NCBI GenBank assembly: GCA_964485475.1
Contig: CAZAKB010000003.1
Coordinates: 1-58,275 of the forward strand
Source: an uncultured bacterium
GTDB lineage: Bacteria; Fidelibacterota; UBA2242
Length of the DNA: 58,275 bases
Reading direction: 5' to 3'
The position numbers and the translations under genes are program-made. Of this stretch, positions 273 to 58,275 are shown one piece after another (the first letter of the stretch is position 1; each line of letters begins with the position of its first letter). The notes beneath the pieces were generated by a model, which saw nothing but the letters and a program-made list of their open reading frames with translations, was not told the DNA's origin and ran no database searches.

Positions 273-360
273 AAAAACGGAGTTGGTCAATCATATAAAG
301 ATGAACAACAATAGTACTAAAGTACTTTCTAAAAAGATATTTCTTTTCTATTTTAATTTT

Positions 361-11143: not shown

Positions 11144-12955
11144 CTATTTCAATACGACCATTTTTTTCACGTTTGTCACCCTGCAATTTTCACTGACCGA
11201 TTGCATTTTATATATATATATCCCACTTGGTACCGGTGCGGTCCATTGAGCCCAATAACTGCCAGCATTGTATCGCCCGTTAATCAACTCTTCAATGACC
11301 GCCCCTTTTAAATCATGCACCGTTAGAGAAACCTGTGCGGTTTCTGGCAAATCGTATCGTATTACCGTACTGGCATTGAACGGATTAGGATAATTCTGTC
11401 CAAGCCGGAATTGATGCTTAATCAATGATTGAGAATCATCGATTCCCGTTCCGACACGATCAATAATCAAACCATTAAAAATTGAATAATCTTTGTTATT
11501 GCCAAAATGTATGTTCAGGATTCCATCGATAACGATAACATTTTCGATATCGATGGTATAAGCCGTATGAATACCTGCCGTTGCAAACAGATCGAGATCG
11601 CGGGCAATATATGTTCCTTCCAGATTGATTTCCATCAACCGACTATTGGCTGAATTGAAGTAATTCTCAGCCAGCATCAGGGTAACATTGTATGTTCCTC
11701 TGGGCAATCGCACATTATAATTGACCAGCCCATGCTGTTCGGATTGGTAAATGACATCGTCGGTTGTATTCGCAATCGTCTGACCGGGAAAATGTCCATC
11801 GTGTCCACCGATCTGGCCAAAATTACCCGTCATTTCCCATTCCTGATCGGCTAACCAGTCATTGAAGGCATCGCCGCCTACATTAATCTTTACCGGATAA
11901 TCCCAATTGGGCGGCATCTGGATTGAAACGGACTGGCCAAGCAGTGAGTTTGCCGGAGATGCCATGTCCTTAACCCCCAAAGCGATTAAACTATAGCTGG
12001 AACCTTCATCAATACCATCAACCGCCAGTTTTACATGGCGACGATTTGCCTGCTGGACAGCACTCTTGATTGTGATTCCGGGAAGCGCATAATTGCCGAC
12101 ATTTTCGGCACTTTCCCGGGTAACCTCTTCTGAAAACGCAACCAGGATGGTATCATTCTCATATTGAGCAAATTCCATAAATGGTTTGTTTTTATCAGTA
12201 TAACCAATATTTGCTGCATCAGTCAGACATAGTATCATTTTCCCATCTTGGAAGAGACAATTCTCGGGTATAAAATCACAATTGTTGCCATTAAAGGTAT
12301 GTGTCGCTTTATCCCAGCGACCCGTATCCCAACTGTCAAAATCATCCCTCCATTGCTGGGTAAAATTATTTCCCGTTCCGACATTGCCAGAGCCCGGTGT
12401 ATAAGATGCATAACTGACCCAATCATAGTATGCAAAAAATGGTAATATATTGTCATCCAGAAACCCTACCCAGTCTGAATAGGCCGGCGGCCAGATATTC
12501 ATCATAATCTTCTGGTCCCGGTTCAGGGCTGTGATATGATCGCCGGTGGCACGGTAAACTTCTGTTCCCTCAACAAACCAGGCAACATAGTCCGGTGTCC
12601 ACTCAATGACATAGGTATGAAAACCAGCAGTGGGATCAAAATCAACCCATTGGTGATGTTCGTGATTCACCTGTCCGGGAGTTATTGGATTAAATTGAAC
12701 ATCATTGGTATAACGTCCTAATTGTTCAATATCCAGCTCATTCCATTCATTAATTCCCTGACTGCCTAATTCATGATACGTAAAAAAGGTTGATGTTTGA
12801 CCGGCACCATGGGTCGCCTTGTAATTCACCTCAAAACGGCCGTATGTAAACGTTGCTTTCGTTCGATACTCAGCCCCTTTATAATCTTTTGCCAATATTA
12901 TCCCTGGAATAAAGGCAATCAAGGTTAAAATGATCGTTACTCTCGATTTAATCAT
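11144..12955 (-). CDS. GH16 lichenase-type glucanase + Ig-like + malectin domain + sorting domain
   Basis: GAEYRT..FTYGRFEV and WNELDIE (ExDxE, no beta-bulge) motifs; FHTYVIEWTPDYVAW; malectin-like KINVGG...IYQSE...YNVTLMLAENYF; NYPNPFN. ATG 12955 overlaps the upstream gene end. Confidence 0.88.
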   Translation of the reverse strand: MIKSRVTIILTLIAFIPGIILAKDYKGAEYRTKATFTYGRFEVNYKATHGAGQTSTFFTYHELGSQGINEWNELDIEQLGRYTNDVQFNPITPGQVNHEHHQWVDFDPTAGFHTYVIEWTPDYVAWFVEGTEVYRATGDHITALNRDQKIMMNIWPPAYSDWVGFLDDNILPFFAYYDWVSYASYTPGSGNVGTGNNFTQQWRDDFDSWDTGRWDKATHTFNGNNCDFIPENCLFQDGKMILCLTDAANIGYTDKNKPFMEFAQYENDTILVAFSEEVTRESAENVGNYALPGITIKSAVQQANRRHVKLAVDGIDEGSSYSLIALGVKDMASPANSLLGQSVSIQMPPNWDYPVKINVGGDAFNDWLADQEWEMTGNFGQIGGHDGHFPGQTIANTTDDVIYQSEQHGLVNYNVRLPRGTYNVTLMLAENYFNSANSRLMEINLEGTYIARDLDLFATAGIHTAYTIDIENVIVIDGILNIHFGNNKDYSIFNGLIIDRVGTGIDDSQSLIKHQFRLGQNYPNPFNASTVIRYDLPETAQVSLTVHDLKGAVIEELINGRYNAGSYWAQWTAPVPSGIYIYKMQSVSENCRVTNVKKMVVLK

Positions 12956-14465
12956 TGGATCCCACTTCCATTTTTTTACCATAATTCAATTTACTGTCCG
13001 TTGTCAGCACCGGGAAACCGGGACTAACAATCGGGTAGGGGACCCCGCTCTGCATAACAAACAGATCGATCCGGGTAAGTGTGGTGTGTTCAAACAAATC
13101 CGTATTAATTTCAATTTCACCACTATATTTTACCTGCAGACTATCTACCAATGGATTCAAATACTGTTTAATTGCAGACATGTATTCTGTTTTAAAGTCA
13201 CCATGGTACCCTTGTTTGAGCAAGTATTGATCGCGTTGATAATCCGACATCGTGGCGTCATACCACATATTGGTATAATTTTTAACATAGGTGTTTTTAT
13301 CATAGCCGGCTTTGTAGGCTTCCTGATTGATAAAGTGGTCCCGGATCAGATCAACAACGGCCAGTTTAAATTGTTCCGGGAATTCCTGTTTTGAAATTTG
13401 TCTTTTCCGAAATACCAGGGGGTGGGATTTCACCATATCCTCAAAATCCGTGACTGTCCAGGTTTCACCATCCAGATTGAAGAAGGGTTTGTCGCGTAAA
13501 TCATTAATCCTCTCATCCAGACTCGAATCCAGTTCCACTTCATTTGTTTCACCCCAGAATTGCTGGTTGAACGCATCCTTTTTATCCTTTAGATTTTTCA
13601 GATAACGGGGTCCGATAATTTCTACCATATTCCGGAATGTTTCTTCGGTAAATTCAATGGACTTACCCTTTATGATGTCTGCAACCAGCTGAGTATAGAC
13701 AGCATTTGCCTGAACAGTGTGTAATTTTTCGGTAACATTTTGCGTACGAGTCCGGATGGCACTCTCATTGAGGACCCGTTCATCTTCCCAACCCTTGACC
13801 CTCATTACCAGATAGCTGCCGTCATCAATCTTCACAGGATTCAGCATCTGGTCTTTCTTCAATGGGCTACTGAACAGCATCTTGAACATTTCATCATTCA
13901 GATCAGAGTTAAAGCTGATCTGGCGGCTGGGAATGAGAGAATCCGGCAGAACTTCTGCTGCAATTTTTGAAAAAGGGATCTGTTCTTTGGTATATAAATG
14001 ATAGACCGTCAGGGCTGTCTTTTCATCGGGCAATCTGAGAAACTGGATATCATAGGTCCGTCCGGCAACCCGATAACTATTTTTCACTGCATTGGTATCG
14101 AGGATGACCTTGTTATAGGCGCGATCACTATAGAAATACTGACGCATAGCCTGCTCTTTGCGCCCTTTGATATATTTCTGAAACTCCTCATTTTCAGCCA
14201 GCTTATTATCTGTTCCAGCTTCAAGTGATAATAATTTTTCTGCAATCAGAGAATTCAGAATGATCTTGCGATGGATATAGTTATTCATTTTACAGTAGTT
14301 CGGCCGGATTGTATATTCCGCCCGGCGAATAAACTCATCCCTGGTGATAACACGATCGCCAATTTTCACCAGAATCTGGTCATTTGGAATTTCTACGGCT
14401 TTTTTTTCACAAGCCAAAAACAGTAGCGGAAATATCAGCAGCATTGATCGCCATCGCTTTATCAT
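12948..14465 (-). CDS. SurA/PrsA-like (PpiC-type) chaperone lipoprotein
   Basis: Lipobox FLAC; SurA_N-like ILVKIGDRVITRDEF...ILNSLIAEKLLSLEA; degenerate parvulin segment; second SurA_N-like repeat. ATG 14465 preferred over 14525. Confidence 0.65.
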   Translation of the reverse strand: MIKRWRSMLLIFPLLFLACEKKAVEIPNDQILVKIGDRVITRDEFIRRAEYTIRPNYCKMNNYIHRKIILNSLIAEKLLSLEAGTDNKLAENEEFQKYIKGRKEQAMRQYFYSDRAYNKVILDTNAVKNSYRVAGRTYDIQFLRLPDEKTALTVYHLYTKEQIPFSKIAAEVLPDSLIPSRQISFNSDLNDEMFKMLFSSPLKKDQMLNPVKIDDGSYLVMRVKGWEDERVLNESAIRTRTQNVTEKLHTVQANAVYTQLVADIIKGKSIEFTEETFRNMVEIIGPRYLKNLKDKKDAFNQQFWGETNEVELDSSLDERINDLRDKPFFNLDGETWTVTDFEDMVKSHPLVFRKRQISKQEFPEQFKLAVVDLIRDHFINQEAYKAGYDKNTYVKNYTNMWYDATMSDYQRDQYLLKQGYHGDFKTEYMSAIKQYLNPLVDSLQVKYSGEIEINTDLFEHTTLTRIDLFVMQSGVPYPIVSPGFPVLTTDSKLNYGKKMEVGSND

Positions 14466-14565
14466 ATTACAAATTACCCCCATGTTGTTCTGGGGGTAGT
14501 TTATAACGTTCAAAACAATTTTCATAATGGTTAGTCAAAGCGATCAGCTTTCATTATTACTCTCA

Positions 14566-15630
14566 TTAAAATTGTAGGCCAATTGTATATGAATGGGTGT
14601 TTCCAAGAACCCCAACAGGTTTAAAGGCATAATCGGTTTTGATACTGTAGTTATTAAGAAAGTTAATAACAAAACCGCCACCATAAGTCATCCCGTATTC
14701 CGATTCAATCATAAAGAGCGCTTTATATCCGGCCCTTAGAAAAAACTTACCGGTGCCGGGAATATTCAGTTCATACTCTGCACCGAGATTGACTGATTCA
14801 GAGTTATTATTCGGATGCAATGCATCTGCCGCCAGGGTCAAACGATGATTTCTAAGCACAATCGGTTGAATTGACATGCCAATCCTGAAAATTAAAGGCA
14901 ACTCCCACTCCTTGGTTTTAAACTGCCCCTGAACGGTACTGTAATTACCGGCTTCGTCGGGTTCAATATCAATCGGGAACAGCAGATCCATACCATCATA
15001 TTTCATCCGAGTTCCATAATTGGATATACTCATTCCGATCCGCATACCATCATCCCGGTTATCAGTCACCGAGAAAAACCCGGTATTGACGATAACACCC
15101 AGGTCCATTGCAAAAGCACTGGCTGACTCATGCCAAATTTGAGAGCTGATATATTTGGCCGTCGCGCCAAATGAAAACCACTGGGCCAGGCGACGGGAAT
15201 AAGTGAGGGCAAAACTATAATCATTTGCCGAGAACAGTTCACCAGTGCCGTCCTGGTAATCCAGGGTCGTTACTTCCATATCCCCATATCCCACGTGGAA
15301 AAAGCTAAACGCCAGAGTTCCAATGGATGGCAATATAAACGCGGAAGCGATATTGGATGTATTAATATCAATCACCCAGGGTTGATACATAAACATTGCC
15401 TCGTTGTTTTTTAAAAATGCCAGTCCCGCCGGATTCCAGTAGATCGATGATATTCTCCCAGTCATACTGACATAGGCGTCACCCATAGCATTACCATCAC
15501 TGCCAATCCCAATTTCTAAAAAATTAGCCGTTGTTGTTCCCACCCTGTACGGTTCTTGTGCAAATAGCGACATGTTCCCCAACAAAACAAGCAATAGCAT
15601 CCAAATCAGCATCGAATGGTTTTTTTTCAT
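14566..15630 (-). CDS. PorV/PorQ-family (UPF0164-like) outer-membrane beta-barrel
   Basis: GTTTANFLEIGIG...AMGDAYV...SIYWNPAGLA, LPLIFRIG and NLGAEY motifs; C-terminal THSYTIGLQF. Start uncertain (15630-15660). Confidence 0.88.
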   Translation of the reverse strand: MKKNHSMLIWMLLLVLLGNMSLFAQEPYRVGTTTANFLEIGIGSDGNAMGDAYVSMTGRISSIYWNPAGLAFLKNNEAMFMYQPWVIDINTSNIASAFILPSIGTLAFSFFHVGYGDMEVTTLDYQDGTGELFSANDYSFALTYSRRLAQWFSFGATAKYISSQIWHESASAFAMDLGVIVNTGFFSVTDNRDDGMRIGMSISNYGTRMKYDGMDLLFPIDIEPDEAGNYSTVQGQFKTKEWELPLIFRIGMSIQPIVLRNHRLTLAADALHPNNNSESVNLGAEYELNIPGTGKFFLRAGYKALFMIESEYGMTYGGGFVINFLNNYSIKTDYAFKPVGVLGNTHSYTIGLQF

Positions 15631-15673
15631 CACACGCATCTTCCTCTGCCCATATATCATTGGTATCAACCTT

Positions 15674-18600
15674 TTATTTAATAATTGCAAATTTGCCAAG
15701 TTTCTCATCGCCTGTCAGTTTTGACTGAACATGGTACAGGTACATTCCCGCCGCCACTTCAAGCCCCTCTCTCGTCAGCACGTCCCAATGCGCAGTACCG
15801 TCGGGATCATCATTATTGACTTCGATGACATCCACCAATACACCGCTGACTGTAAATATCTTGATCGTACATTGTGAGGGAAGGTTCGTAAACATAAGGT
15901 CTCGCCGCTGGTTCAGATACCAGTTCGCCACTGCTCCTTCCATGGCATTTGTACACACATAGGGATTAGGTACAACCTTAATATCTTTCATAGTCTCTTT
16001 CAAATCCGCCGTATTTACATCAACAGATGGTAATACTTTAAAACTAATCGTGTCAGTGGCGAAAAACGGACGATCAAAGGATATCGAATAGACATCATCG
16101 GTTTCCGGCAGTTGTGTGCTGTCGCCAAAAGCCGACAAGAAATCAATTGCAAAAACAGAACCGGCCCATTTACCCTTGGTATTCAGCGGCCCGGCATAAA
16201 TTTTATCAGTCAGGATATCAAACTTACCATTTTTATCCAGATCATGGACAATTAGATCCAGAATTTGAAGCGAATCCGGAAACGTTTTATTAATCACGTA
16301 AAAGTTAAAATCTTCCCTGGTCAATAAATTACTCTTGATTTGAGTATCTTTGGTGTCGCGAATTCTTGAGGCGCTCCCGGCTCCGGTATAGGCAACATTA
16401 TCGATAAATATTATTTCATAATCCCAGGGGAAAAACTTTGATTCACGGCTGGTTGGCGTCACCCGGATCGGTGACGATCCGGTTTTCCAGCCAGAATTCC
16501 CATAATCATAAGTCGCAATTTGAACCGGTTGATCAATGTTCAATGTCAAACCGTCAAAAACATCCGTCTGAATGGTCTTTCCGGTATTGATATGCCAGAG
16601 TTTCAATGTGTCGTCATAAACAAGATTTTTCCCTGTAAAACTTTCAGGATTTTCAAGGTACACCTGTATAGAGTCAGTCAAATCGAATACTCTGACACCA
16701 TTATTACAATATGAAAGACCATGTGGATAATCATCAATAATATCGATAGTGTCCACTTCAAAGGTCACCTGGTAAATATGGTTTACATTCAAACTTTTAT
16801 TTGCCATGATCTCCGGGGTGACCGTTCCCGCGCCAATTGCATCATCACTAATGATCTCAAGATCTTCCGGAACATAACCAGCTGCTTTTTGATAGGGAGT
16901 AACAATTTGAACATTTTTATCAACATATGATACATTTTCCGACTCATCCAATTTGATAATAATGTTATTTTCCGAGGGAGCAATCCCGGGACCAATATCT
17001 TCTGCACCATAATCGTAAGCCACAAGAGCATAATAATAGGTCCGGCCATTCTGGACATTCGTATCTTCAAAGTAATGCTGGATACCTTTGTCACTGCCAA
17101 GATAATAACCCACACCGTTGATCATTCCAAAATCAGCAAAGCCGGTAATTGTATCTTTTACATCACATTCAAAAATGGGCTCATTGTATGTCGGAGTGCC
17201 ATATCCATCCGTGATAACCATAGGATCTGACATCTTTTTATCTGTTGAGCGATAGAGTTTGTAACCCTCGAAATCATTGACATTACCAACAAAAGGATCA
17301 CGGGTTTTTGTATCGGAAATATTATCCCAGGTCAAAACGACTTTTCCGTCACCGGGAGTAGCGGTCAGCGTTGGTTTGATAGGAGCCTGGGCAAAACGAT
17401 AATCCTTTTCATAAATCACCTGTACGATTTTCTTCAACTCAAAAAGCGCCGGCGCACTATGATCATCGGAATTTAATCCTTCCAGGGGATCAAAAGAATG
17501 CAGTTCCGCCATGGACACCCGTTCTGTTCTTCCCTGGTAGAGTGGAAATGGTCCCGATGCAAAGGTTTCAACAAGGTTCGACTGCCACTCAGTCTCTTCA
17601 ATCAATGATTCAACACCGATCACTTCCCACATGGACTTGTCATTACGAAACCATTTCGTATAGGGCGGATTATGGGGCTGGATTTCAAACAGCTGAAATG
17701 AGGTCAGACCAATCATATCGGATTCACTGACATCGGTTGCCGCAAAATTGGGCTCGCATCCCAAGCCTTCATCATAATCCGGCATGTGATTCCCTTCACC
17801 TTCGTCGGGACCATTGTAGTTTAAATCTGTTGGTCCGACACCGTCATATCCAACGTCATCACCGGCATCTTCTCCTGGTTCATTAACCCAGACCGGTTCG
17901 AGCTCTGTGCCGATATTGATTGCATAAACCCCATTATCATTCAGGTCGACACCATCTATCCAATCCTGATCCTCATCACCTTCATAATGCTCATGTAAAT
18001 CTGATTCATTTAACAAATAGAATCTCAGAAAATTCGGAAGATTATCAATGCCATCATAGGGTCCAACCAACATCCCGGCATTATTATCGCGCTCTTCATC
18101 GACGAGGCCATCTCCGTCATTATCCACACCATCATAGGCCAATCCCGGGCTCTCGAGATACGCAAATCCCATGGTGCCGGTAGAATAACCTCCCTGGCCG
18201 ACACCATCTATATCCCATGAATAAGCCATATCTATTGCAACATCAAAAAAACCTAATTCATCATCGTCACCGGCGCCGGCAACGTTATCACCAATAGCAT
18301 TATCTACCCAGTAACCAAACGCTACTTCCGGCAGATCATAATCGGAAATATTGGCAATATTGTATTCCCAGAAAATAGCGTCCTGGGCCTGGGGGTTGTT
18401 CCACTGGAATCCGCGCTGTTCAACCCGTATCCCGAGGCCGCCCCAGAGATTTCCCCGTTGGGCTGTAACACTTGCTAATTTATCACCAATCTTTACACCC
18501 GGACGAGGATAGTATTTTATCCGGTCTTCCGGTCCGAGGTATTCCTGATCCTGGGCGTCATTGGCCACAAAATAGGTTTCAAGGTCGGCATAGATAACTC

Positions 18601-19171
18601 CCCGGCCAAAACGGCCATCCCATTCACCCGGCCACTTGACTTGATCATTTGACGCCGGCCAACCACCGACTGGCCAGGAGGCCGAGTCATTGCTCATTGC
18701 CGGATATTCACTATTAGGATTGAAATATCCAAACACCGGATATAGTCCCCATTCAATCTGACCCGTTGGATCAACATCCATCTCTTCCCGGTAATGCGTT
18801 TGTAAAAAATAGAGAGTATCCAGTTCCCCGGCAGCCGACAACAAAATACGCTGAGCTGCATCGGTTACAGGAATTGTATCTTCTTTAACAAAAACCATGG
18901 CGCCAATCAAGAGACCGATTCCATCAACCATTTTTGCGCCTTCATAGTTATTGGGCCATTTTGAGACTTCGACTTTGGGCCAGTCAGAGAGCTGGGTGGT
19001 ATTGCGAAAATACAAAAACACCCGATTACCGTCCATATATCCCTCACGGAGGGCCGTTGGATCTGCAGCCGGATCATCCGGTCCGTCATACACTTTTCCC
19101 TGGCCATAAAGAGTTCCAGCTAAAAGCAGAACCAATATCAGCATCGAATATATTTTTATCGTCATCTTCAT
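15674..19171 (-). CDS. Large secreted hypothetical protein with DxDxDG loops, FN3 domain and variant C-terminal sorting domain
   Basis: Signal peptide; DGVDNDGDGLVDE; FN3-like PTLTATPGDGKVVLTWD..FEGYKLYRS..TYYYALVAYD; C-terminal IKVVPNPYV..FTNLPSQCTIKIFTVSG..GMYLYHV..KFAIIK. No catalytic motif recognised. Confidence 0.85.
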   Translation of the reverse strand: MKMTIKIYSMLILVLLLAGTLYGQGKVYDGPDDPAADPTALREGYMDGNRVFLYFRNTTQLSDWPKVEVSKWPNNYEGAKMVDGIGLLIGAMVFVKEDTIPVTDAAQRILLSAAGELDTLYFLQTHYREEMDVDPTGQIEWGLYPVFGYFNPNSEYPAMSNDSASWPVGGWPASNDQVKWPGEWDGRFGRGVIYADLETYFVANDAQDQEYLGPEDRIKYYPRPGVKIGDKLASVTAQRGNLWGGLGIRVEQRGFQWNNPQAQDAIFWEYNIANISDYDLPEVAFGYWVDNAIGDNVAGAGDDDELGFFDVAIDMAYSWDIDGVGQGGYSTGTMGFAYLESPGLAYDGVDNDGDGLVDEERDNNAGMLVGPYDGIDNLPNFLRFYLLNESDLHEHYEGDEDQDWIDGVDLNDNGVYAINIGTELEPVWVNEPGEDAGDDVGYDGVGPTDLNYNGPDEGEGNHMPDYDEGLGCEPNFAATDVSESDMIGLTSFQLFEIQPHNPPYTKWFRNDKSMWEVIGVESLIEETEWQSNLVETFASGPFPLYQGRTERVSMAELHSFDPLEGLNSDDHSAPALFELKKIVQVIYEKDYRFAQAPIKPTLTATPGDGKVVLTWDNISDTKTRDPFVGNVNDFEGYKLYRSTDKKMSDPMVITDGYGTPTYNEPIFECDVKDTITGFADFGMINGVGYYLGSDKGIQHYFEDTNVQNGRTYYYALVAYDYGAEDIGPGIAPSENNIIIKLDESENVSYVDKNVQIVTPYQKAAGYVPEDLEIISDDAIGAGTVTPEIMANKSLNVNHIYQVTFEVDTIDIIDDYPHGLSYCNNGVRVFDLTDSIQVYLENPESFTGKNLVYDDTLKLWHINTGKTIQTDVFDGLTLNIDQPVQIATYDYGNSGWKTGSSPIRVTPTSRESKFFPWDYEIIFIDNVAYTGAGSASRIRDTKDTQIKSNLLTREDFNFYVINKTFPDSLQILDLIVHDLDKNGKFDILTDKIYAGPLNTKGKWAGSVFAIDFLSAFGDSTQLPETDDVYSISFDRPFFATDTISFKVLPSVDVNTADLKETMKDIKVVPNPYVCTNAMEGAVANWYLNQRRDLMFTNLPSQCTIKIFTVSGVLVDVIEVNNDDPDGTAHWDVLTREGLEVAAGMYLYHVQSKLTGDEKLGKFAIIK

Positions 19172-19220
19172 TTATATCTGAACTCCTAATAATGTCACTT
19201 TTATACTCTCAAAATGGTAG

Positions 19221-21962
19221 TTAGAAATCAATCCCAAGCCCCAGCTTTATCAAGCGTGGCGCTGAGTACATACCGGGGTCTTGAATCCGGTCATAATAAT
19301 CATTGAATTCGCTTTTATGACTGGCCAGGTCCGTATCCCGGACAAGCGCAGTATAGGCCCGACCAGTCTGATTGTTTACCCAGGTTTCGTTTAAACGATC
19401 AAACAGGTTGTATATTGTAAGTGTTAATTTCATTTTAATGTTTTCAGAAATATCAATTTTGTAAAAGCCGTTAAAATCAAATGAATACTGGGCCGGCATC
19501 CAGGAATTATTCGGCAGTAAATTAACTGTAAATAGAATTGATTCGCTAATCGGCGACCATGAATAAGGTGTTCCTGAATTGTAATATCCGGTCAGGTTTG
19601 CACCATATTTGGAAGTCTTGTATCCCACGGTCACATTCAGTGTATGGCGCTGATCCCAGGACATGGGAATCATCTGAGCAATTGGATCAATACTATCACC
19701 CGCTCTATCATAAGTCATAGCGGGGTTATCTGCATTACCACGGGTATACTGTAGTGTATAATTCAGGTTAGTGGAAAACTTATCCATTACCCATTTATAT
19801 TTTATTTCCAGACCTCTGACATTTCCATAATCTTTATTTGTATACAGGCCATATTCTGTTTGTTCGTAAGTACTGACAACCTTGACACTTAATAAATCAT
19901 AAATATCGCGGTAGAATAAGGCAATCTCCAAATCCATCCCGGTCATCAATTCCTGCCACAGGCCGACTTCATAAGTAACCGTCTTTTGAGGGTTAATTGT
20001 CGGATTTCCCAGAATAGTAGAATAATCTGTTGGTGAAATTCTGTATGAATTGCCGACATACATGGCAAATGCCGGTGGCATCTGGAAAAAGTGTCCGTAG
20101 CTGAAGTGCAAGACTGCCGCACTTCCCAGCTGATAGGAGAGTCCTAAGCGGGGACTGATTTGGGTTCTTGGGTCAGCCCAGATATATTCGGACATTTTTT
20201 CCGGATCATCAAACTGGCTTTTATTTGACGGGTTCCGCCACTGAGAGGGATATCTCTTTTTCGGATCATAGTAGTCATAGCGAATACCGAAATTAATGAC
20301 CATATCATTAAATTCCATTTTATCCTGGAAATAGACGGCATATTCAATTGGTTTGACATAAATCGAATCCGTATAGACTGTAGAATCAGATAAGGTAACC
20401 GCCTGATAATTCGGGAAGTAAACCTTTGGTTTGTTATCTAAAAGGACGAAGTAATATAAGCCCTCTTCCTCGAGTCCTCGGTACAGATTCTGGATCTGAC
20501 GTTCCTGGCTGTCGATAATATGCTGGGTGTAATGAAACCCCGTTTTAAAACTGTGATGTTTATTCATCTGCCAGGTAATATCAAATTTTGCATTCTGATC
20601 TATCTGGGTCCGCTCGGTGTGATGCTTCTGCTGACTGCCGGTATAAAAACCGGGACCATCAATCTGACTGTAGACATCGTGAACATAATTGGAATCGGTG
20701 GGGTCTTTATAGACATAATCACCATAAAAATTATCCACATAACTGAGCTTTAGCTCGTAAAAGAATGAGTTATTCAACATATGGTTAAAATTCAGTGCTA
20801 ACATTTTTGAATCCCGATACTGAGTTGCTTTTCCATCGGGATTGTATTTATAGGCATGGTCATAGTTGTGCCATTCATCAGTATTCATAGTCGCCAACGC
20901 AGAGACCTTCAGATTTTTAAACAGTTTCGTGGACAATTTTCCCATAAAGGAGCTGTTAATACTGCGGTTCATTGACACATAGGCGCTATCGCCATTATAT
21001 TCGGTGTACCAGTTTACCGGATCATTTGAACTGTAATAACTGAAATCATCAACATTGAACAGACGATAACCGTTTAAATGATTTTTATTATCCTGGAACC
21101 GGTAATTAACCAAAAAAAACAGGTGATCTTTAATTATTGGACCGTTAAGATTGATTTTATAATCCTGATTGCGATTCAATTCGGCGGGGTCCAGACCAAT
21201 AAAAATATTATCATGAGACGTAAAATAATTGGCCATGGATCCTGAGATCGATCCGTGGAATTTATTACCTCCAACCTTCGTCACAGCATTTACAATTCCA
21301 CTCATAGCATCGCCATATTCAGCATTGAATGTTCCGGTGATCACTTCGAGGTCCTGGATAGATTCCGGTTCAAGGTCCACCGAACGACCCTCACCACCAA
21401 AACCTTCATCCACGGGAATACCGTCAATCATATAGGATACTTCCGTCGAACGACCACCCCGGAAATGCCCTTTTACAACACCGGCTTGCATGGATACAAC
21501 ATCTTCAACACTTTCTATCGGCAAGGCGTCAATTTCACTGGCAGAAACATTTTTTACCGTGCTGGTCTGATCTTTTCGAACAGAAATCTTCTGGGCGGTG
21601 ACAATGACCTCCTGCCCCTCAAGTACAGTGGAACTCATGCCGATTTCAATATACTCGGTCCGGTTGACTGAAACTTGAATTTCCTGTACCACGACCGGAT
21701 TATAACCGATCATCTGAGCTCTAAGTGAATAGACCCCCGGCCTTACGTTGATGATATAGAAATCACCGTTAGCATCCGCGGCCGCACCCATATTCGTACC
21801 CGTCAAAATAATATTCGCGCCGGGCAAAGCATCGCCACTGGATTTATCAAATACGCGTCCGGATATCTTCCCCGTCGTTTGCGAAAAGCTAATGCCTGAT
21901 GTAATCATCACTATAAGAGCAATTGAAAAATAGTAACTCTTTTTATTTCTTAGTCCGACCAT
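19221..21962 (-). CDS. TonB-dependent receptor with N-terminal carboxypeptidase-regulatory-like domain
   Basis: TGKISGRVFD..LPGANI..GAAADANGDFYI; plug HFRGGRSTEVSYMIDGIPV..TGTFNAEYG.AMSGIVN; SPRLGLSY; C-terminal PRLIKLGLGIDF. ATG 21962 has an upstream RBS. Confidence 0.95.
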   Translation of the reverse strand: MVGLRNKKSYYFSIALIVMITSGISFSQTTGKISGRVFDKSSGDALPGANIILTGTNMGAAADANGDFYIINVRPGVYSLRAQMIGYNPVVVQEIQVSVNRTEYIEIGMSSTVLEGQEVIVTAQKISVRKDQTSTVKNVSASEIDALPIESVEDVVSMQAGVVKGHFRGGRSTEVSYMIDGIPVDEGFGGEGRSVDLEPESIQDLEVITGTFNAEYGDAMSGIVNAVTKVGGNKFHGSISGSMANYFTSHDNIFIGLDPAELNRNQDYKINLNGPIIKDHLFFLVNYRFQDNKNHLNGYRLFNVDDFSYYSSNDPVNWYTEYNGDSAYVSMNRSINSSFMGKLSTKLFKNLKVSALATMNTDEWHNYDHAYKYNPDGKATQYRDSKMLALNFNHMLNNSFFYELKLSYVDNFYGDYVYKDPTDSNYVHDVYSQIDGPGFYTGSQQKHHTERTQIDQNAKFDITWQMNKHHSFKTGFHYTQHIIDSQERQIQNLYRGLEEEGLYYFVLLDNKPKVYFPNYQAVTLSDSTVYTDSIYVKPIEYAVYFQDKMEFNDMVINFGIRYDYYDPKKRYPSQWRNPSNKSQFDDPEKMSEYIWADPRTQISPRLGLSYQLGSAAVLHFSYGHFFQMPPAFAMYVGNSYRISPTDYSTILGNPTINPQKTVTYEVGLWQELMTGMDLEIALFYRDIYDLLSVKVVSTYEQTEYGLYTNKDYGNVRGLEIKYKWVMDKFSTNLNYTLQYTRGNADNPAMTYDRAGDSIDPIAQMIPMSWDQRHTLNVTVGYKTSKYGANLTGYYNSGTPYSWSPISESILFTVNLLPNNSWMPAQYSFDFNGFYKIDISENIKMKLTLTIYNLFDRLNETWVNNQTGRAYTALVRDTDLASHKSEFNDYYDRIQDPGMYSAPRLIKLGLGIDF

Positions 21963-22054
21963 ATTTAATTCCCTTAGAACTTCTGTCAATAATGGCAATG
22001 CCTGCTGAATTTAGTTAAACAGTCAATGTCCAACTATAATTATTATTGATTATT

Positions 22055-22087
22055 AAAAAGCGGGGTGCGGATTTACTCCGCACCCCG
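22055..22087 (-). terminator. Rho-independent terminator
   Basis: Minus strand CGGGGTGCGGA-GTAAA-TCCGCACCCCG-CTTTTT: perfect 11-bp stem plus U-tract, ~20 bp after the stop at 22107. Confidence 0.88.
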
Positions 22088-22106
22088 GGTAGTATACAAT
22101 ATGATA

Positions 22107-24650
22107 CTATTTCACCAACATCATCTTTTTTGTTTGTTTGAATACACCGGACTGGATCTGGTAGAAATATACACCGGAAGGAATATTCTCAACATTCCAA
22201 ACAATGTTATACGTTCCCATTGCCCGATAATCATTCACAAGTTCGGCAACCTGCTGTCCAACCATGTTATAGACACGGATGGTTACATCACCGGCGTGCG
22301 GAATTGTGAATTGAATATTCGTTGTCGGGTTGAAAGGATTCGGATAATTCTGTTCCAGACGATAGGACCGCAGGGCATTGTCGTCGGCCAGATCAATGGC
22401 ATTAGCCGCAACACCGGCCGTGTCGCCAATCCATGTATAGCTCCACTGTGTCGGTGACTGCCAGGCCAGATCTGTATTGAACGGTGACCATGCCAAATTG
22501 CCATCCCAGGCACCATCGTTATCATGGAAGTAGAGTTCAAGCGGAATTCTCATACCACGAACCGGGTGAAAACGTGTATCGTCGTTGCCGGCGATTGAAT
22601 CCAATGGTACACGGGCTTCAATAACATAATCTTCACCGCTAAAGTCTTCGAGAAAATAATCAGGATCATCAACCGTCCAGATCGTATTGCCGATATATTC
22701 ATTGACAATACCGTTCGTATGGAACTGGAGTTTGTAATCAGGTTCATTACCACGCATATTCGACCGGTGTTTTGCGCCGGGGGAATTATACAGACCGATG
22801 AAGAATTCAAAGGCATCCTGATTCCACCAATCACCTTCGCCAAAATTATAAACATCGTCGATAACATCGGCAGCGATATAGAGATAATCATCATCAATCG
22901 CCAGGTAAACAGTGGCTTTCAGGTCCAGACTATCAGTGACTGTACCAGCAGCGACATTATTATTTTCCGGAGTCAGGACCCATGGCATTATACCACTGTC
23001 CCACCATTCGGTGAAATCACCATCAGCAGCAAAGTTTGCTGGAACATCCAGTGAAATTGTAGGAATACCTTTCGCTGTATTTGTAATCGCTGTGGAGACT
23101 CCTGCGGGACCGTCATTGCCCCATGAATCAATACAAACGACCGCATAATAATAGGTTATTTCATAATCCAGCAGAGGATACTGAAGATAATGAATAGCAG
23201 TCTGCGTTCCTTCAAGAACACCGGTTGCAACAATTTCAACATTTGAAGCAGTTATATCAGTAATCGTTTGAGTGCTGGCGTAGACATTATAGGATTCGCC
23301 CTCTTCACCTTCATTATCGGCCCAAATAACCAGGTTGTAAAAATCAGCAGACTCTACTGCACCAACATTCTGTACCTCGGTCGTCCCGGTCACATCAATC
23401 GGCGGGTTGCCGGTCCAGATATCATCCAGATATACTGTCCGTCCAAGGGCAGCCGTACTACCCATTAGAATCTTGAGGTCTTTGACCCGGGTGGTATCCA
23501 TCAGTTCGTCGTATTGCATGGCCGAGCCGTCCCAGGCACCGCCATTCCGGTCAAAATTGACCAGTGGAATTTTAACCTCTTTCCAGGTACCGTCATAACC
23601 AACTTCACTCTCTTTGAGCATATAGAATGATTCATAACCCAGATCAGGACCATCACCATCCATGTCGTCATCAGCAATAACAATCTTCAAAGAATCAAGT
23701 CCGGCATCAGCTTTGATCATAAAATGCAATGAGTCGATACCCCAATTGTACTGGAGGTCCTTCTCGGCAGAAAACGAGAACACAAGACCGTCCCACAAGG
23801 CCCAATCGTTGGGAGGCAGGTTCCACTGCAGAGACTGGTCCCCTGAATAGAATTCATCTGTGGAGATAGCATAACCGCCACCACCCCAGCCACCATACAG
23901 GCTAACATTTCCGGGAATGGCATCGCCAGTCCAGAAGACGAGCTCTACCGGTTTAGCCCCTTTAAGAGTCATGTGATCTATAATTATTTCACCATTACTA
24001 CGCTCCCCGCCGGCGCCAGCGGAACCGACGTCAATGGAAAACTCAAGAGAAAAACCTTTAATTTTGTCCAGATTAAGGGTGTAGTTACCGCCAATACCGG
24101 ACCAACCAGTCAGGTTAAATCCGTTCCCGTCCCAAGAATAGTTATTTACAAGCGGTATTTTGATCTCGTTCCAACCGGGTTCCATATCAAGGATATAGTG
24201 GAATGAGTAGTAGTATTCGCATTCGTTAACATCATAGGTTTTATTTCCATCAGGTGAATCACTAACCTCTTGCAGGTTAAAACGCAGATGCGCCCGGCCC
24301 GCTCGTGATTGTGGAATCGAATTGTAAAAATAGAAACTGATCGAATCAAAACCGGTAAAATCATAACAAGCATTGGAATCCGGGTTCCAATGTTCAATTT
24401 TTGTAAAACCGCCCCATGACTCACTGTTTTGAGCACTGTAGACAATCTTCATAGCGCTGTCGCCCATTAACACCGGATCATCAACAAAACTGAAATTAAA
24501 ATACGATGAATCGGCGACGGCGTTATCACCCACAAAGACATCCCAATAGCTTGTGTCTGGGGTAGCGTCAAAACCATTGATCACTTTCTGCCCGTAAGAC
24601 AAACTTACGGCAAGGATCAATACCAAACCAATTAACAATTGCTTCTTCAC
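22107..24650 (-). CDS. Secreted non-catalytic multi-CBM protein (CBM11/CBM30-like beta-sandwiches, FN3-like, CBM9-like) + sorting domain
   Basis: GTG start with strong RBS AAGGAGG; two modules ending GWNEIKIPL and TWKEVKIPL; CBM9/DOMON-like ADGDFTEW..YLYIAADVIDD..DAFEFFI..YVIEARVPL; NYPNPFNPTT CTD. Confidence 0.8.
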   Translation of the reverse strand: MKKQLLIGLVLILAVSLSYGQKVINGFDATPDTSYWDVFVGDNAVADSSYFNFSFVDDPVLMGDSAMKIVYSAQNSESWGGFTKIEHWNPDSNACYDFTGFDSISFYFYNSIPQSRAGRAHLRFNLQEVSDSPDGNKTYDVNECEYYYSFHYILDMEPGWNEIKIPLVNNYSWDGNGFNLTGWSGIGGNYTLNLDKIKGFSLEFSIDVGSAGAGGERSNGEIIIDHMTLKGAKPVELVFWTGDAIPGNVSLYGGWGGGGYAISTDEFYSGDQSLQWNLPPNDWALWDGLVFSFSAEKDLQYNWGIDSLHFMIKADAGLDSLKIVIADDDMDGDGPDLGYESFYMLKESEVGYDGTWKEVKIPLVNFDRNGGAWDGSAMQYDELMDTTRVKDLKILMGSTAALGRTVYLDDIWTGNPPIDVTGTTEVQNVGAVESADFYNLVIWADNEGEEGESYNVYASTQTITDITASNVEIVATGVLEGTQTAIHYLQYPLLDYEITYYYAVVCIDSWGNDGPAGVSTAITNTAKGIPTISLDVPANFAADGDFTEWWDSGIMPWVLTPENNNVAAGTVTDSLDLKATVYLAIDDDYLYIAADVIDDVYNFGEGDWWNQDAFEFFIGLYNSPGAKHRSNMRGNEPDYKLQFHTNGIVNEYIGNTIWTVDDPDYFLEDFSGEDYVIEARVPLDSIAGNDDTRFHPVRGMRIPLELYFHDNDGAWDGNLAWSPFNTDLAWQSPTQWSYTWIGDTAGVAANAIDLADDNALRSYRLEQNYPNPFNPTTNIQFTIPHAGDVTIRVYNMVGQQVAELVNDYRAMGTYNIVWNVENIPSGVYFYQIQSGVFKQTKKMMLVK

Positions 24651-33656: not shown

Positions 33657-33660
33657 GGCT

Positions 33661-40876: not shown

Positions 40877-40907
40877 AATTTCCGCTATGGGCATATGCAT
40901 TTTCACA

Positions 40908-54350: not shown

Positions 54351-54422
54351 GCAGGTCTCCTGTTACTATTAATCTTGCTAAATTTTAAATTAATTGCTGC
54401 ATATCACAAACTGAAATAACTC

Positions 54423-54438
54423 GCATAAGTTGTGCCAA
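54423..54438 (-). promoter_or_regulatory. Sigma54 -24/-12 promoter
   Basis: Minus strand TTGGCACAACTTATGC, close to consensus TGGCAC-N5-TTGC, ~73 bp upstream of the MFS start. Confidence 0.85.
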
Positions 54439-54577
54439 ATTTATAATTATTGATTGATAATTATAAAAAATTCTATCGCGTATCCAATTTATCGAGGGAT
54501 ACAGATTTTTTATTTAACAATTGCGCCTTTTCCTATCCTTAAAATCAATAATGTATTCGGATTGATAATCGGAAAGT

Positions 54578-57616: not shown

Positions 57617-57648
57617 TCTTCGTACGATTAGTCAAGGATTTTGTTACT

Positions 57649-58273: not shown

Positions 58274-58275
58274 CT

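What the first reader, a model, noticed from the sequence alone, without database searches (positions are those of the whole stretch)
12948..24650. SusD-less glycan-capture module: multi-CBM protein + TonB receptor + 1165-aa variant-CTD protein + dedicated PorV paralog + dedicated chaperone
Seen: five co-oriented genes at the centre of the locus, no SusD-like lipoprotein anywhere in the window, and a receptor lacking SusC hallmarks. The slot next to the receptor holds a large non-enzymatic secreted protein, then a PorV-family barrel and a SurA/PrsA-like lipoprotein. Established: Bacteroidota use SusC/SusD pairs, and PorV is the T9SS shuttle that binds C-terminal sorting domains. Inference: this is an alternative utilisome in which a T9SS-exported protein, held at the surface by its own PorV paralog, serves as the receptor's lid or substrate-binding partner. 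I recall similar receptor-large protein-PorV triplets in non-Bacteroidota FCB genomes but know of no functional description. This is the best candidate for an undescribed system here.
Basis: partly seen in the sequence, partly recalled or inferred. Interest (0 to 1): 0.88.

Follow-up and report, generated by a model that had tools for sequence, protein, structure and literature searches.

The report
SusD-less receptor module with PorV-type anchor
A beta-glucan locus carries a three-gene outer-membrane set (TonB receptor, large secreted surface protein, PorV-like barrel) that recurs about twenty times in this genome and across several related phyla, and probably does the job that SusC/SusD pairs do in Bacteroides.

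Summary
The five co-oriented minus-strand genes are real and lie at the stated coordinates. The core is a triplet. It consists of a TonB-dependent transporter (TBDT) that is not SusC-class, a 1165-aa all-beta secreted protein ('BIG') ending in a variant T9SS C-terminal domain (vCTD), and a PorV/PorQ-family barrel.

The triplet is not a one-off. This 3.5-Mb, 88%-complete genome holds about 18-20 copies, and no SusD match was found. The triplet is kept in 21 of 29 orthologous loci, and the other 8 are cut by contig ends. It also appeared in 17 of 20 regions I chose around PorV-family hits in five other genomes. The three genes diverge together (Mantel r 0.59-0.84, 0 of 5000 permutations).

The N-terminal half of BIG is a galactose-mutarotase-like beta-supersandwich, and its vCTD resembles that of PorZ. 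A complex model puts the vCTD on the PorV-like barrel: score 0.92 against 0.01 for the best control. A similar PorV-CTD complex is already solved, so this pass may come from memory.

A lid or capture role on the receptor is inferred, not tested. The SurA/PrsA-like lipoprotein is optional. The CBM9 gene looks like a separate transcription unit.

My nine literature searches found no functional description. The only trace was an unannotated instance in a Rhodothermus alginate locus.

The parts
22107..24650 (-). 847-aa secreted protein with CBM9 (residues 562-736), a weak CBM30-like stretch and a type A T9SS sorting domain (residues 769-844). It is an ordinary T9SS cargo and a likely surface glycan binder.
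   Evidence: Pfam and NCBIfam. Weak PDB sequence match to the xylanase CBM9 entry 1i82. An ortholog lies upstream of the receptor in L013, L015, L016, L018, L019, L027 and L028 with scores over 400 bits.
22061..22087 (-). Terminator-like hairpin (11 pairs, 9 of them G-C, followed by a T-run) in the 108-bp gap between the CBM9 gene and the receptor gene.
   Evidence: Consensus scan, and the strongest site in the region scanned. In four RNA-library runs the contig over the CBM9 gene carries a depth figure of 69-212, against 4-42 for contigs over the receptor. That tool warns that contig depths cannot rank genes.
19221..21998 (-). 925-aa TonB-dependent transporter: N-terminal CarbopepD_reg extension (45-133), plug (142-234) and 22-strand-type barrel. 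It is not SusC-class.
   Evidence: Pfam. TIGR04056 scores 52.4 bits against a cut-off of 368. There are 18 close paralogs in the genome at 859 bits or more against my profile. Of these, 17 lie within 6 kb of a PorV paralog, and the 18th (C170) is followed by a BIG fragment at a contig end.
17387..19069 (-). BIG residues about 35-595: a beta-supersandwich (galactose-mutarotase-like) domain with an acidic insert at about residues 345-490, rich in D-x-D-x-D-G motifs. Calcium binding by the insert is inferred.
   Evidence: AlphaFold2 model with mean pLDDT 86.7 and pTM 0.76. VIA-align wide search: N-terminal domains of GH15, GH94, GH65 and GH149 enzymes at Z 15.8-19.8, rmsd 2.9-4.2, 229-271 residues aligned. 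Invariant acidic residues in a 42-sequence alignment.
16037..17374 (-). BIG residues about 600-1045: an FN3-like domain followed by further beta-sandwich domains, probably a stalk or spacer.
   Evidence: Secondary structure of the model. Foldseek matches to multi-FN3 and Ig proteins.
15677..16018 (-). BIG residues 1052-1165: the variant T9SS C-terminal domain (vCTD). Its first strand has the motif VVPNPY, followed by an insert of about 20 residues. It ends in GKFxIIK.
   Evidence: PorZ model NF052228 E 4e-5; TIGR04183 below cut-off. PorZ structure 5m11 at Z 12.1, rmsd 2.2, 94 residues aligned, 24% identity. The same tail ends 16 partner proteins in this genome. My vCTD profile separates 18 proteins (domain score 81 or more) from 73 other CTD hits (under 50).
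14566..15708 (-). PorV/PorQ-family 14-strand-type outer-membrane barrel. The real start is probably the Met at 15639 or 15630, which removes the overlap with BIG. The signal peptide would be cut after residue 50.
   Evidence: NF033709 at 225 bits. The best solved relative by sequence is PorV, 6h3i_F, E 2.5e-13. Complex model with the vCTD: score 0.92, best control 0.01.
12948..14525 (-). 525-aa SurA/PrsA-like lipoprotein with a chaperone-type N-domain and a parvulin-like domain. It is an optional fourth member of the module.
   Evidence: Model with pLDDT 82.9. Foldseek matches PrsA, SurA and PEB4 with probability about 1.0 and E 1e-4 to 1e-2. Present in 14 of 29 orthologous loci. An iterated profile finds it near about 7 of the genome's modules.

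Best explanation
This is one copy, specific for beta-glucan, of a modular outer-membrane uptake system. In this lineage the system takes the place that SusC/SusD pairs hold in Bacteroides.

Proposed mechanism, step by step:
1. The large protein (BIG) crosses the outer membrane through the type IX secretion system, directed by its variant C-terminal domain (vCTD).
2. The vCTD is not cleaved. It stays bound to the PorV/PorQ-family barrel encoded next to it, as PorZ stays on PorQ and PorU on PorV.
3. This tethers BIG at the cell surface beside the TonB-dependent transporter encoded in the same unit.
4. The N-terminal supersandwich passenger of BIG captures beta-glucan chains or oligosaccharides. 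These are released by the neighbouring T9SS-exported GH16 and GH5 enzymes, with the CBM9 protein also holding substrate.
5. BIG passes the sugars to the transporter.
6. SSF/MFS symporters and the cytoplasmic GH94 and GH149 phosphorylases and GH3 enzymes finish the pathway.
7. The SurA/PrsA-like lipoprotein assists folding or assembly in some modules.

Shown: the gene set, its conservation, its copy number, its co-divergence, the folds, and the presence of T9SS genes in the genome.
Supported by a model only: vCTD-barrel binding.
Inferred: retention of the vCTD, contact with the transporter, and glycan binding.
For: - Anatomy and families.
- Context is a beta-glucan locus: five GH5, two GH16, GH94, two GH3, GH2, GH149, two SSF symporters, an MFS transporter, and a sigma-54 response regulator, histidine kinase and solute-binding protein.
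- Copy number. Of 22 PorV-family ORFs found by phmmer, 18 sit in transporter / partner / barrel modules. Three further BIG fragments lie at contig ends.
- One-to-one pairing. Of 18 proteins carrying the vCTD, 17 lie within 6 kb of a PorV paralog, and the 18th lies 7.5 kb from one. Among the 73 other CTD hits, 13 do. Of 23 transporters at 100 bits or more, 17 lie next to a PorV paralog.
- The partner's passenger region varies while the tail is kept. Five of the 10 partners compared match BIG only in the vCTD.
- Co-divergence among 15 modules: Mantel r is 0.84 (transporter vs barrel), 0.70 (transporter vs vCTD) and 0.59 (barrel vs vCTD). In each case 0 of 5000 permutations reached the observed value.
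- Conservation elsewhere. 21 of 29 orthologous loci hold all three genes and the other 8 are cut by contig ends. The record titles name Calditrichota, KSB1/Zhuqueibacter, Neomarinimicrobiota, Ignavibacteriales and Melioribacteraceae. 17 of 20 regions I chose around PorV-family hits in five genomes hold the triplet.
- PorV-family matches were found in 61 of 61 sampled genomes of the phylum, with 2-30 matches each. SusD was found in 10 of those 61 and in 0 places in this genome.
- T9SS is present: SprA, and PorU at 721 bits.
- Folds.
- Complex model: score 0.92 in three runs against 0.01 for the best of 3 controls. The mark was reached by 58 of 80 solved complexes and 2 of 110 mismatched pairs. 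Partner pLDDT was 76-78, and the runs agreed in at least 85% of contacts.
- Precedent for retained CTDs on cognate PorV-like barrels: review PMC10202324, passages read.
- RNA-library contigs at 99% identity or more cover all five genes in four runs.
Against: - No test of contact between BIG and the transporter was possible.
- PorV-CTD complexes are solved (8glj), so the pass may reflect likeness. Close cousins also pass such tests, so it does not show that the pairing is private.
- Predicted interface positions on the barrel are as variable among the 18 paralogs as the rest of the protein (mean entropy 1.99 against 1.92). The CTD-side contacts are the conserved motif residues (1.52 against 1.99). 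This fits generic CTD recognition as well as it fits specific pairing.
- Co-divergence follows from duplication of whole modules and does not need physical contact.
- The supersandwich fold is shared with true enzymes: aldose 1-epimerases at Z 12-13.6, and a GH174 endo-fucanase at Z 14.0. A shared fold shows no function.
- A terminator-like hairpin lies between the CBM9 gene and the receptor gene, so the five genes are not one uniform unit.
- The RNA evidence consists of contigs from RNA libraries, which can hold DNA. They cannot show a single transcript.
- The genome is 88% complete, so absence of SusD is not proven.
Confidence: 0.55

Rival explanations
1. Private shuttle only. The PorV paralog is a secretion adaptor that extracts proteins carrying this CTD class from the T9SS translocon. 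After export the CTD is removed, and BIG is released or fixed to the surface by the PorU sortase. Its link to the transporter is shared regulation in one substrate locus, not a physical complex.
For: Canonical PorV is a shuttle (review PMC10202324, passages read). The genome has PorU at 721 bits. The predicted interface uses the conserved CTD motif residues, as generic cargo recognition would. The complex model fits this reading equally well.
Against: A shuttle role alone does not explain why about 18 separate barrels are each kept beside one transporter and one vCTD protein. More than 70 ordinary CTD cargos in the same genome have no barrel of their own. It also does not explain why transporter and barrel distances correlate best of the three pairs (r 0.84).
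Confidence: 0.2
2. BIG is an enzyme. On this reading it is a new surface glycanase, lyase or epimerase built on the supersandwich fold, exported by T9SS, that cuts beta-glucan at the mouth of the transporter.
For: The supersandwich fold is catalytic in aldose 1-epimerases (Z 12-13.6) and matches a GH174 endo-1,3-fucanase (Z 14.0, 232 residues aligned). Residues such as R253, W171, N57 and several acidic residues are invariant in the 42-sequence alignment. In Bacteroides loci, surface enzymes sit in comparable positions (recalled).
Against: There is no Pfam or NCBIfam catalytic family hit. The best fold matches are the non-catalytic N-terminal domains of GH15, GH94, GH65 and GH149 enzymes, and BIG has no counterpart to their catalytic (alpha/alpha)6 domain. 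Most invariant acidic residues fall in D-x-D-x-D-G-type loops typical of calcium sites (inference). Partner proteins in other modules carry unrelated passengers.
Confidence: 0.12
3. Assembly device. By analogy with BamA-BamG-BamH-BamM, the barrel, the large surface protein and the PPIase-like lipoprotein form a canopy. The canopy helps fold and insert the large transporter, or keeps it stable, rather than handling substrate.
For: In Flavobacterium and Bacteroides BAM, a FadL/PorV-like 14-strand barrel (BamG) binds the back of BamA and anchors a surface protein with a carbohydrate-binding-type fold (BamH). BamM has a PPIase fold (PMC12611786 and PMC12578637, passages read). The module here has the same three kinds of parts, including a parvulin-type lipoprotein.
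Against: By sequence the barrel is closest to PorV (E 2.5e-13), and no BamG chain was matched at E of 0.01 or better. The partners' passengers vary by locus, as substrate-specific parts do. The SurA-like gene is missing from most modules.
Confidence: 0.06
4. The barrel is a FadL-type channel for a hydrophobic or amphipathic compound, and its position in the locus is incidental.
For: PorV-family proteins are FadL homologs (PMC12578637, passage read).
Against: The adjacency is kept across phyla and about 18 paralogs, with one-to-one pairing to vCTD proteins and a confident vCTD-barrel model.
Confidence: 0.03

Closest known systems
SusC/SusD pairs and utilisomes of Bacteroidota polysaccharide utilization loci
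   Same: A TonB-dependent transporter with an N-terminal CarbopepD_reg extension, encoded beside a surface partner. The system is multiplied into many substrate-specific paralogous sets and embedded in CAZyme loci with a regulator and inner-membrane transporters.
   Different: The transporter fails the SusC family cut-off (52 bits against 368). The partner is an all-beta 1165-aa T9SS cargo, not a TPR-type SusD lipoprotein. A third gene, the PorV-family barrel, is obligatory. No SusD match was found in this genome.
PorZ-PorQ and PorU-PorV pairs of the T9SS attachment complex
   Same: A T9SS cargo whose C-terminal domain is kept and bound by a PorV-family barrel, which holds the protein on the surface (PMC10202324). 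The BIG tail is most like the PorZ CTD.
   Different: Those are single-copy parts of the secretion machine. Here about 18 barrel-cargo pairs each go with a nutrient transporter. Retention of the vCTD is inferred, not shown.
SprB/SprF-type pairs (type B CTD cargo with an adjacent PorP/SprF-like barrel)
   Same: A cognate barrel gene lies next to the gene of a large cargo with a non-standard CTD (mentioned in PMC10202324).
   Different: The barrel family differs (PorP/SprF, not PorV/PorQ), the CTD class differs, there is no transporter, and the function is gliding adhesion.
Alternative lipoprotein lids of non-SusC transporters in Bacteroides (Price et al., bioRxiv 10.1101/2023.03.17.533168; abstract and discussion read)
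   Same: Non-SusD partners encoded next to non-SusC TonB-dependent transporters and proposed to bind substrate on the outer face.
   Different: Those are small lipoproteins for small substrates, found almost only in Bacteroidota, and need no barrel. Here the partner is large, reaches the surface by T9SS, and comes with its own barrel.
BamA-BamG-BamH(-BamM) of Bacteroidota
   Same: A large barrel, a FadL/PorV-like 14-strand barrel and an extracellular protein anchored by that barrel. A PPIase-fold lipoprotein occurs in some versions.
   Different: That machine inserts outer-membrane proteins, BamH is a lipoprotein, and it is single-copy and essential. Any likeness of the architecture here is an analogy only.
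Rhodothermus marinus alginate locus: tonB-hypA-hypB-hypC (PMC9530828, legend of figure 2 read)
   Same: The same annotated order and sizes: TonB-dependent receptor (2805 nt), T9SS sorting-domain protein (2181 nt), PorV/PorQ family protein (1056 nt) and a hypothetical protein (1398 nt), inside a glycan locus of a cultured organism.
   Different: The genes are only drawn and named as hypothetical, and no role is proposed. I could not fetch the sequences to test homology with the genes here.

Membership tests
SusC/RagA TonB-linked outer membrane protein (TIGR04056) | Whole-protein score over the curated cut-off of 368 bits | tested here: not met
   The window's transporter scores 52.4 bits. The best place anywhere in the genome scores 92.5 bits.
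SusC/RagA TonB-linked outer membrane protein (TIGR04056) | N-terminal CarbopepD_reg extension before the plug and barrel | tested here: met
   PF13715 at residues 45-133 (E 2.3e-18), Plug at 142-234, barrel at 382-865.
SusD/RagB | Sequence match to SusD families and an alpha-helical TPR-type fold in a lipoprotein next to the transporter | tested here: not met
   No SusD family was hit in the 28 window proteins scanned. PF07980 gave 0 matches in the genome at 87.7% completeness. The BIG model is all-beta.
PorV/PorQ family (NF033709) | Score over the cut-off of 90 bits across the full-length model | tested here: met
   225.2 bits over model positions 1-326.
T9SS PorV proper (NF033710), PorQ (NF033711), PorV2 (NF052325) | Score over the equivalog cut-offs of 250, 220 and 325 bits | tested here: not met
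   93.0, 91.0 and 57.9 bits. No place in the genome passes the PorV cut-off.
T9SS type A sorting domain (TIGR04183 / PF18962) | C-terminal domain score over the cut-off (23 and 27 bits) | tested here: not met
   BIG scores 16.6 bits on TIGR04183 and has no PF18962 hit. For comparison, the CBM9 protein passes at 45.6 and 45.7 bits. At fold level the BIG tail matches the PorZ CTD (Z 12.1, rmsd 2.2, 94 aligned), so it is a divergent relative.
T9SS cargo | A T9SS is present in the same genome | tested here: met
   SprA at 788 bits summed over one frame. PorU at 721 bits.
T9SS cargo | Export depends on T9SS; the CTD is cleaved or retained | not testable with these tools
   Needs secretion mutants and mass spectrometry of the mature protein.
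SurA/PrsA-type chaperone | SurA N-domain and parvulin domain | tested here: inconclusive
   SurA_N_2 scores 24.9 bits, under its cut-off of 28.5. The model (pLDDT 82.9) matches PrsA, SurA and PEB4 by Foldseek with probability about 1.0 and E 1e-4 to 1e-2, and matches parvulin domains with TM about 0.7 on the target.
Galactose-mutarotase-like supersandwich (carbohydrate-binding-type domain of GH15, GH65, GH94, GH149) | Fold match covering the domain | tested here: met
   Z 15.8-19.8 with 229-271 residues aligned to these N-domains. Sugar binding itself was not tested.
Polysaccharide utilization locus in the strict sense | An adjacent susC-susD pair | tested here: not met
   There is no SusD, and the transporter is below the SusC cut-off.

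The most novel reading that the evidence does not exclude
FCB bacteria outside the Bacteroides-type class use a three-protein outer-membrane machine as their general system for capturing polymers. It consists of a TonB-dependent transporter, a private PorV-family barrel docked to it, and a T9SS-exported passenger held over the transporter by an uncleaved variant C-terminal domain. On this reading the type IX secretion system and its PorV-like barrels double as the way to put transporter partners on the cell surface in lineages that do not use SusD-type surface lipoproteins. The architecture would parallel BamA-BamG-BamH.
Probability: 0.35. Interest if true: 0.9.

Novelty: new variant of a known kind. 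Interest (0 to 1): 0.8.

Why it matters
SusC/SusD pairs are the accepted marker for glycan uptake loci, and tools that predict such loci look for that pair. In the sampled genomes of this phylum, SusD was found in 10 of 61. PorV-family barrels were found in 61 of 61, mostly in 8-30 places each. Most transporters of this genome sit in the triplets described here.

If the triplet is the working uptake unit, three things follow.
- Glycan and polymer use by Marinimicrobia-type, Calditrichota, KSB1, Ignavibacteria and Rhodothermus-type bacteria has been under-annotated.
- The substrate range of these abundant uncultured groups could be read from the passenger domains.
- The PorV family gains a second general role, as an anchor of nutrient-capture proteins.

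It would also bear on the question raised by Price et al. of why transporter lids seem confined to Bacteroidota. Other lineages may reach the surface by T9SS instead of by lipoprotein export.

Cultured carriers exist, so the idea can be tested directly.

Tried and rejected
- A complex model of the transporter with BIG, or of all three proteins, could not be run.
- Foldseek on the whole BIG model gave only low-TM multi-domain matches: FN3 chains, PorZ and PorU. The domain-level picture came from the VIA-align wide search.
- A sigma-54 promoter pattern was no more frequent than chance: 6 matches with up to one mismatch, and 18 of 100 shuffles reached 6. None lay upstream of the module. I dropped the idea of a sigma-54 promoter at the module.
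- The sigma-70-type scan gave many consensus matches (55 against 37.8 expected) and no clear promoter.
- Interface-residue conservation did not separate 'private' from 'generic' barrel-CTD recognition.
- The Atlas search returned only unnamed clusters.

Literature. Nine searches were answered. None returned a paper describing a TonB receptor / T9SS cargo / PorV-paralog unit. This rests on the open-access library only. Subscription papers and supplementary files were not seen and could hold such a description. The Caldithrix abyssi and Melioribacter roseus genome papers (passages read) do not mention it.

Rejected readings:
- BIG as a SusD homolog, because of its fold and the lack of any family hit.
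- The 1142-aa protein at 45948..49376 as a paralog of BIG. It is a GH149 beta-1,3-glucan phosphorylase.

Parts of the laid stretch with little RNA-contig cover (for example 25025-25625 and 26828-28000) are not interpreted.

Rows left out:
- The Mantel test used 15 of 18 modules. C175 and C10 lacked one gene at a contig end, and the partner in C11 was unclear at that time.
- The 20 regions were chosen by me from the listed high-scoring PorV-family hits, skipping each genome's top hit. They are not a random sample, and L056 is the same locus as L015.
- The profiles used were built from this genome's own modules, so their scores on those same sequences are circular. Only the gap between the two score groups and the hits in other genomes carry weight.

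Full report
**Observation**

The window carries five co-oriented genes on the minus strand at exactly the stated coordinates.

- 24650..22107 encodes an 847-aa protein with a CBM9 domain, a sub-threshold CBM30-like stretch and an ordinary type A T9SS sorting domain.
- 21998..19221 encodes a 925-aa TonB-dependent transporter with an N-terminal CarbopepD_reg extension, plug and barrel. It scores 52 bits against the SusC/RagA model, whose cut-off is 368.
- 19171..15674 encodes a 1165-aa protein (here called BIG) with a signal peptide and no Pfam family. It has only weak C-terminal matches: PorZ model E 4e-5, and the type A tail model below its cut-off.
- 15708..14566 encodes a PorV/PorQ-family barrel. 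It scores 225 bits against a cut-off of 90, but is below the cut-offs of the PorV, PorQ and PorV2 equivalogs.
- 14525..12948 encodes a 525-aa lipoprotein with sub-threshold SurA N-domain matches.

The surroundings form a beta-glucan locus:
- GH5 (five), GH16 (two), GH94, GH3 (two), GH2 and a GH149 beta-1,3-glucan phosphorylase;
- two SSF symporters, an MFS transporter and a CotH-like protein;
- a sigma-54 response regulator with a histidine kinase and a solute-binding protein.

No SusD family was hit in any of the 28 window proteins scanned. PF07980 finds nothing in the whole genome, which is 87.7% complete.

**The triplet is a repeated module**

The genome (3.5 Mb, 352 contigs) has 30 places matching the PorV/PorQ family, 23 of them over the cut-off. 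I called ORFs myself and searched them with the five window proteins.

- Of 22 PorV-family ORFs, 18 sit directly beside a transporter of the same subfamily, almost always with a 627-1648-aa protein between or just after them.
- The other four do not. One of these abuts a PorU-like fragment and may be the true PorV.
- Three more BIG fragments run off contig ends next to such genes (C175, C170, C36). The genome therefore holds about 18-20 modules.
- All the partner proteins end in the same tail. It has a first strand VVPNPY, an insert of about 20 residues, then an F-x-N-L-P strand, and it ends in G-K-F-x-I-I-K.
- A profile of that tail splits the genome's CTD proteins into 18 with a domain score of 81 or more and 73 with a score under 50. 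Of the 18, 17 lie within 6 kb of a PorV paralog, and the last lies 7.5 kb from one. Of the 73, 13 do.
- Of 23 transporters at 100 bits or more, 17 are next to a PorV paralog.
- The profile was built from these same proteins, so membership is circular. The clean gap in scores is not.
- The passengers differ. By profile comparison, five of the ten partners tested share only the tail with BIG.

**Co-divergence**

Trees of transporter, barrel and tail were built for 15 complete modules. Their patristic distances correlate: r is 0.84 for transporter-barrel, 0.70 for transporter-tail and 0.59 for barrel-tail. In each case 0 of 5000 permutations reached the observed value. This shows that modules duplicate and diverge as units without shuffling. 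It is what cognate partners would show, but it does not prove contact.

**Conservation elsewhere**

A scan of one genome per species found 29 loci encoding BIG relatives. Their record titles name Calditrichaceae/Calditrichota, candidate division KSB1 and Zhuqueibacter, Neomarinimicrobiota, Ignavibacteriales and Melioribacteraceae, plus some MAGs labelled Cytophagia or Bacteroidetes.

- In 21 of the 29 loci, transporter, BIG and barrel are all present. The order is transporter-BIG-barrel or transporter-barrel-BIG, sometimes with two or three BIG genes.
- The other 8 loci are cut by a contig end on the side where the missing gene would lie.
- The SurA-like gene follows in 14 of the 29.
- The closest relatives (77-82% identity) are labelled Neomarinimicrobiota. 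The Atlas names Fidelibacterota for the nearest cluster. The window therefore probably comes from that phylum (Marinimicrobia/SAR406).
- In 61 sampled genomes of the window's phylum, the PorV family is found in 61, with 2-30 matches each. SusD is found in 10.
- Five genomes behind the loci from other groups have 27-39 PorV-family matches each. SusD is found in 2 of the 5.
- I fetched 20 regions around PorV-family hits in five genomes. The choice was mine, not random, and one region repeats locus L015. Of these, 17 hold the triplet, one holds a different pair without a transporter, and two are cut by contig ends.
- In the phylum of the Melioribacteraceae genome, match counts at E of 1e-20 or better fall into three groups: none (17 of 81), one to five, and seven to twenty. 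I cannot name the classes behind these groups.
- The BIG family is large: 413 clusters at 50% identity with E of 1e-30 or better, and 1543 with E of 1e-10 or better.

**Folds**

BIG folds confidently with a 42-sequence alignment (mean pLDDT 86.7, pTM 0.76).

- Residues about 35-595 form a beta-supersandwich of the galactose-mutarotase type. The best matches are the N-terminal non-catalytic domains of GH15, GH94, GH65 and GH149 enzymes (Z 15.8-19.8, rmsd 2.9-4.2, 229-271 residues aligned).
- Aldose 1-epimerases follow at Z 12-13.6, and a GH174 endo-fucanase at Z 14.0.
- An acidic insert at about residues 345-490 holds most of the invariant Asp and Glu residues. It looks like a set of calcium sites, which is an inference.
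- Residues 600-1045 are FN3-like and other beta-sandwich domains.
- The tail matches the PorZ structure (5m11: Z 12.1, rmsd 2.2, 94 residues aligned, 24% identity). PorZ is also the first Foldseek hit for the whole model (E 4.5e-8).
- No catalytic domain was recognised, but the fold alone cannot exclude an enzyme.

The fifth protein folds with pLDDT 82.9 and matches PrsA, SurA and PEB4 chaperones, including a parvulin domain. An iterated profile finds relatives near about 7 of the genome's modules. It is therefore an optional member.

**Barrel and tail**

A complex model of the mature barrel (residues 51-380) with the BIG tail (1045-1165), each with its own alignment, scored 0.92 in three runs. 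The best of 3 controls scored 0.01.

- The mark was reached by 58 of 80 solved complexes and 2 of 110 mismatched pairs.
- Partner pLDDT was 76-78, and the runs agree in at least 85% of contacts.
- A PorV-CTD complex has been solved (8glj and related entries), so the pass may come from likeness.
- The model shows that this pair looks like a PorV-cargo pair. It does not show that the pairing is private or permanent.
- Predicted contact residues on the barrel vary among paralogs as much as other residues. Those on the tail are the conserved motif residues.

**Expression and transcription units**

Contigs from four RNA-library runs, at 99% identity or more, cover all five genes. Single contigs bridge the BIG/barrel, transporter/BIG and CBM9/transporter junctions.

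These are contigs from RNA libraries, which may hold DNA, and a contig across two genes shows no single transcript. The contig over the CBM9 gene carries a much higher depth figure (69-212) than those over the transporter and BIG (about 4-42). The tool warns against ranking genes this way.

The strongest terminator-like hairpin of the region lies in the gap between the two genes (22087..22061). Taken together, these observations suggest that the CBM9 gene is a separately terminated, more abundant transcript, and that the triplet plus the SurA-like gene form the downstream unit.

**Mechanism**

The reading that fits best is this:
- BIG is exported by the T9SS. The genome has SprA and PorU.
- Its variant tail stays bound to the neighbouring PorV-family barrel, as PorZ stays on PorQ and PorU on PorV (review PMC10202324, passages read).
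- The tethered passenger then captures beta-glucan fragments for the adjacent transporter.

The recent BAM structures show that a FadL/PorV-like barrel can dock on a larger barrel and hold a surface protein over it (PMC12611786 and PMC12578637, passages read). That makes a transporter-barrel-passenger complex plausible, but it is an analogy only.

My estimates of probability:
- the module as a functional unit: about 0.95;
- tail-barrel binding: about 0.75;
- a capture role for the transporter: about 0.5-0.6;
- a true lid sitting on the transporter: about 0.25.

The rivals are a pure shuttle role for the barrel, an enzymatic BIG, an assembly canopy, and an unrelated FadL-type channel.

**Comparison with what is known, and novelty**

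The parts belong to known families, but the transporter is not SusC-class. The partner is not SusD and fails the type A tail cut-off. The barrel is not PorV, PorQ or PorV2 by NCBI's equivalog models.

Nine full-text searches found no description of this unit. The one trace is the legend of figure 2 of a Rhodothermus marinus paper. It lists tonB, a T9SS sorting-domain protein, a PorV/PorQ family protein and a hypothetical protein side by side in an alginate locus, without comment (PMC9530828).

Price et al. described lipoprotein lids for non-SusC transporters in Bacteroides, and asked why lids seem confined to Bacteroidota (abstract and discussion read). The module here may be another lineage's answer.

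I rate it a new variant of a known kind: a SusD-less uptake locus whose surface partner is anchored through the T9SS. Subscription papers and supplementary files were not visible to me, and could hold an earlier description.

Noticed in passing
window 45948-49376 (-): The other large protein without a Pfam hit (1142 aa) is a GH149 beta-1,3-glucan phosphorylase (NF058639, 1649 bits). It has no signal peptide and is unrelated to BIG. Together with the GH94 gene at 31209-33698, it points to phosphorolytic use of imported laminari- and cello-oligosaccharides.
   Followed up: partly
window 37337-40906 (-): A 1189-aa protein inside the glycan locus with a CotH kinase-like domain, two lamin-tail domains and a chitobiase C-terminal-type domain. 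Its role there is unexplained.
   Followed up: no
window 54001-58275: G+C falls to 0.32-0.34, against about 0.44 elsewhere in the window. The stretch holds a 445-aa protein with a CsgG-like N-terminal part (56020-57357). It may be foreign or a different kind of region.
   Followed up: no
window 22323-22352: In all four RNA-library runs, contigs break at the same place, inside the sorting-domain coding part of the CBM9 gene. Each has the same 255-letter loose end running on into other sequence. This is probably an assembly branch caused by the many similar sorting domains or by a strain variant.
   Followed up: no
window 15639-15708: The longest ORF of the PorV-like gene overlaps the end of BIG by 35 bases. 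Starting at the Met at 15639 or 15630 removes the overlap and leaves a normal signal peptide.
   Followed up: partly
G000 contigs C18 (6782-23729) and C31 (399-14474): Two complete modules stand head to tail on each of these contigs. In C31, an extra gene of about 205 aa lies between the partner and the barrel in both copies. Other loci (L021, L024, L033, L034) carry two or three BIG genes for one barrel.
   Followed up: partly
G000 contig C145 (4506-7036) and locus L043 (5833-10126): A PorV-family gene that is not next to a transporter lies beside a PorU-like gene (C145), or beside a 977-aa protein with a weak sorting domain (L043). These are likely the true PorV-PorU pairs of the secretion machine.
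   Followed up: no
genomes G024, G035, G043: Three genomes of about 1 Mb in the same phylum have only 2 PorV-family matches each and no SusD match. The modules may have been lost with genome reduction.
   Followed up: no
window 283-2292 (+), 5278-7272 (-), 7254-10199 (-), 11144-12982 (-): Four more proteins of the locus carry ordinary T9SS sorting domains: one of unknown family, a GH5+CBM6, a CBM4_9 protein and a GH16+malectin. Most of the locus's extracellular enzymes are therefore T9SS cargo. None of them has a barrel gene of its own.
   Followed up: partly
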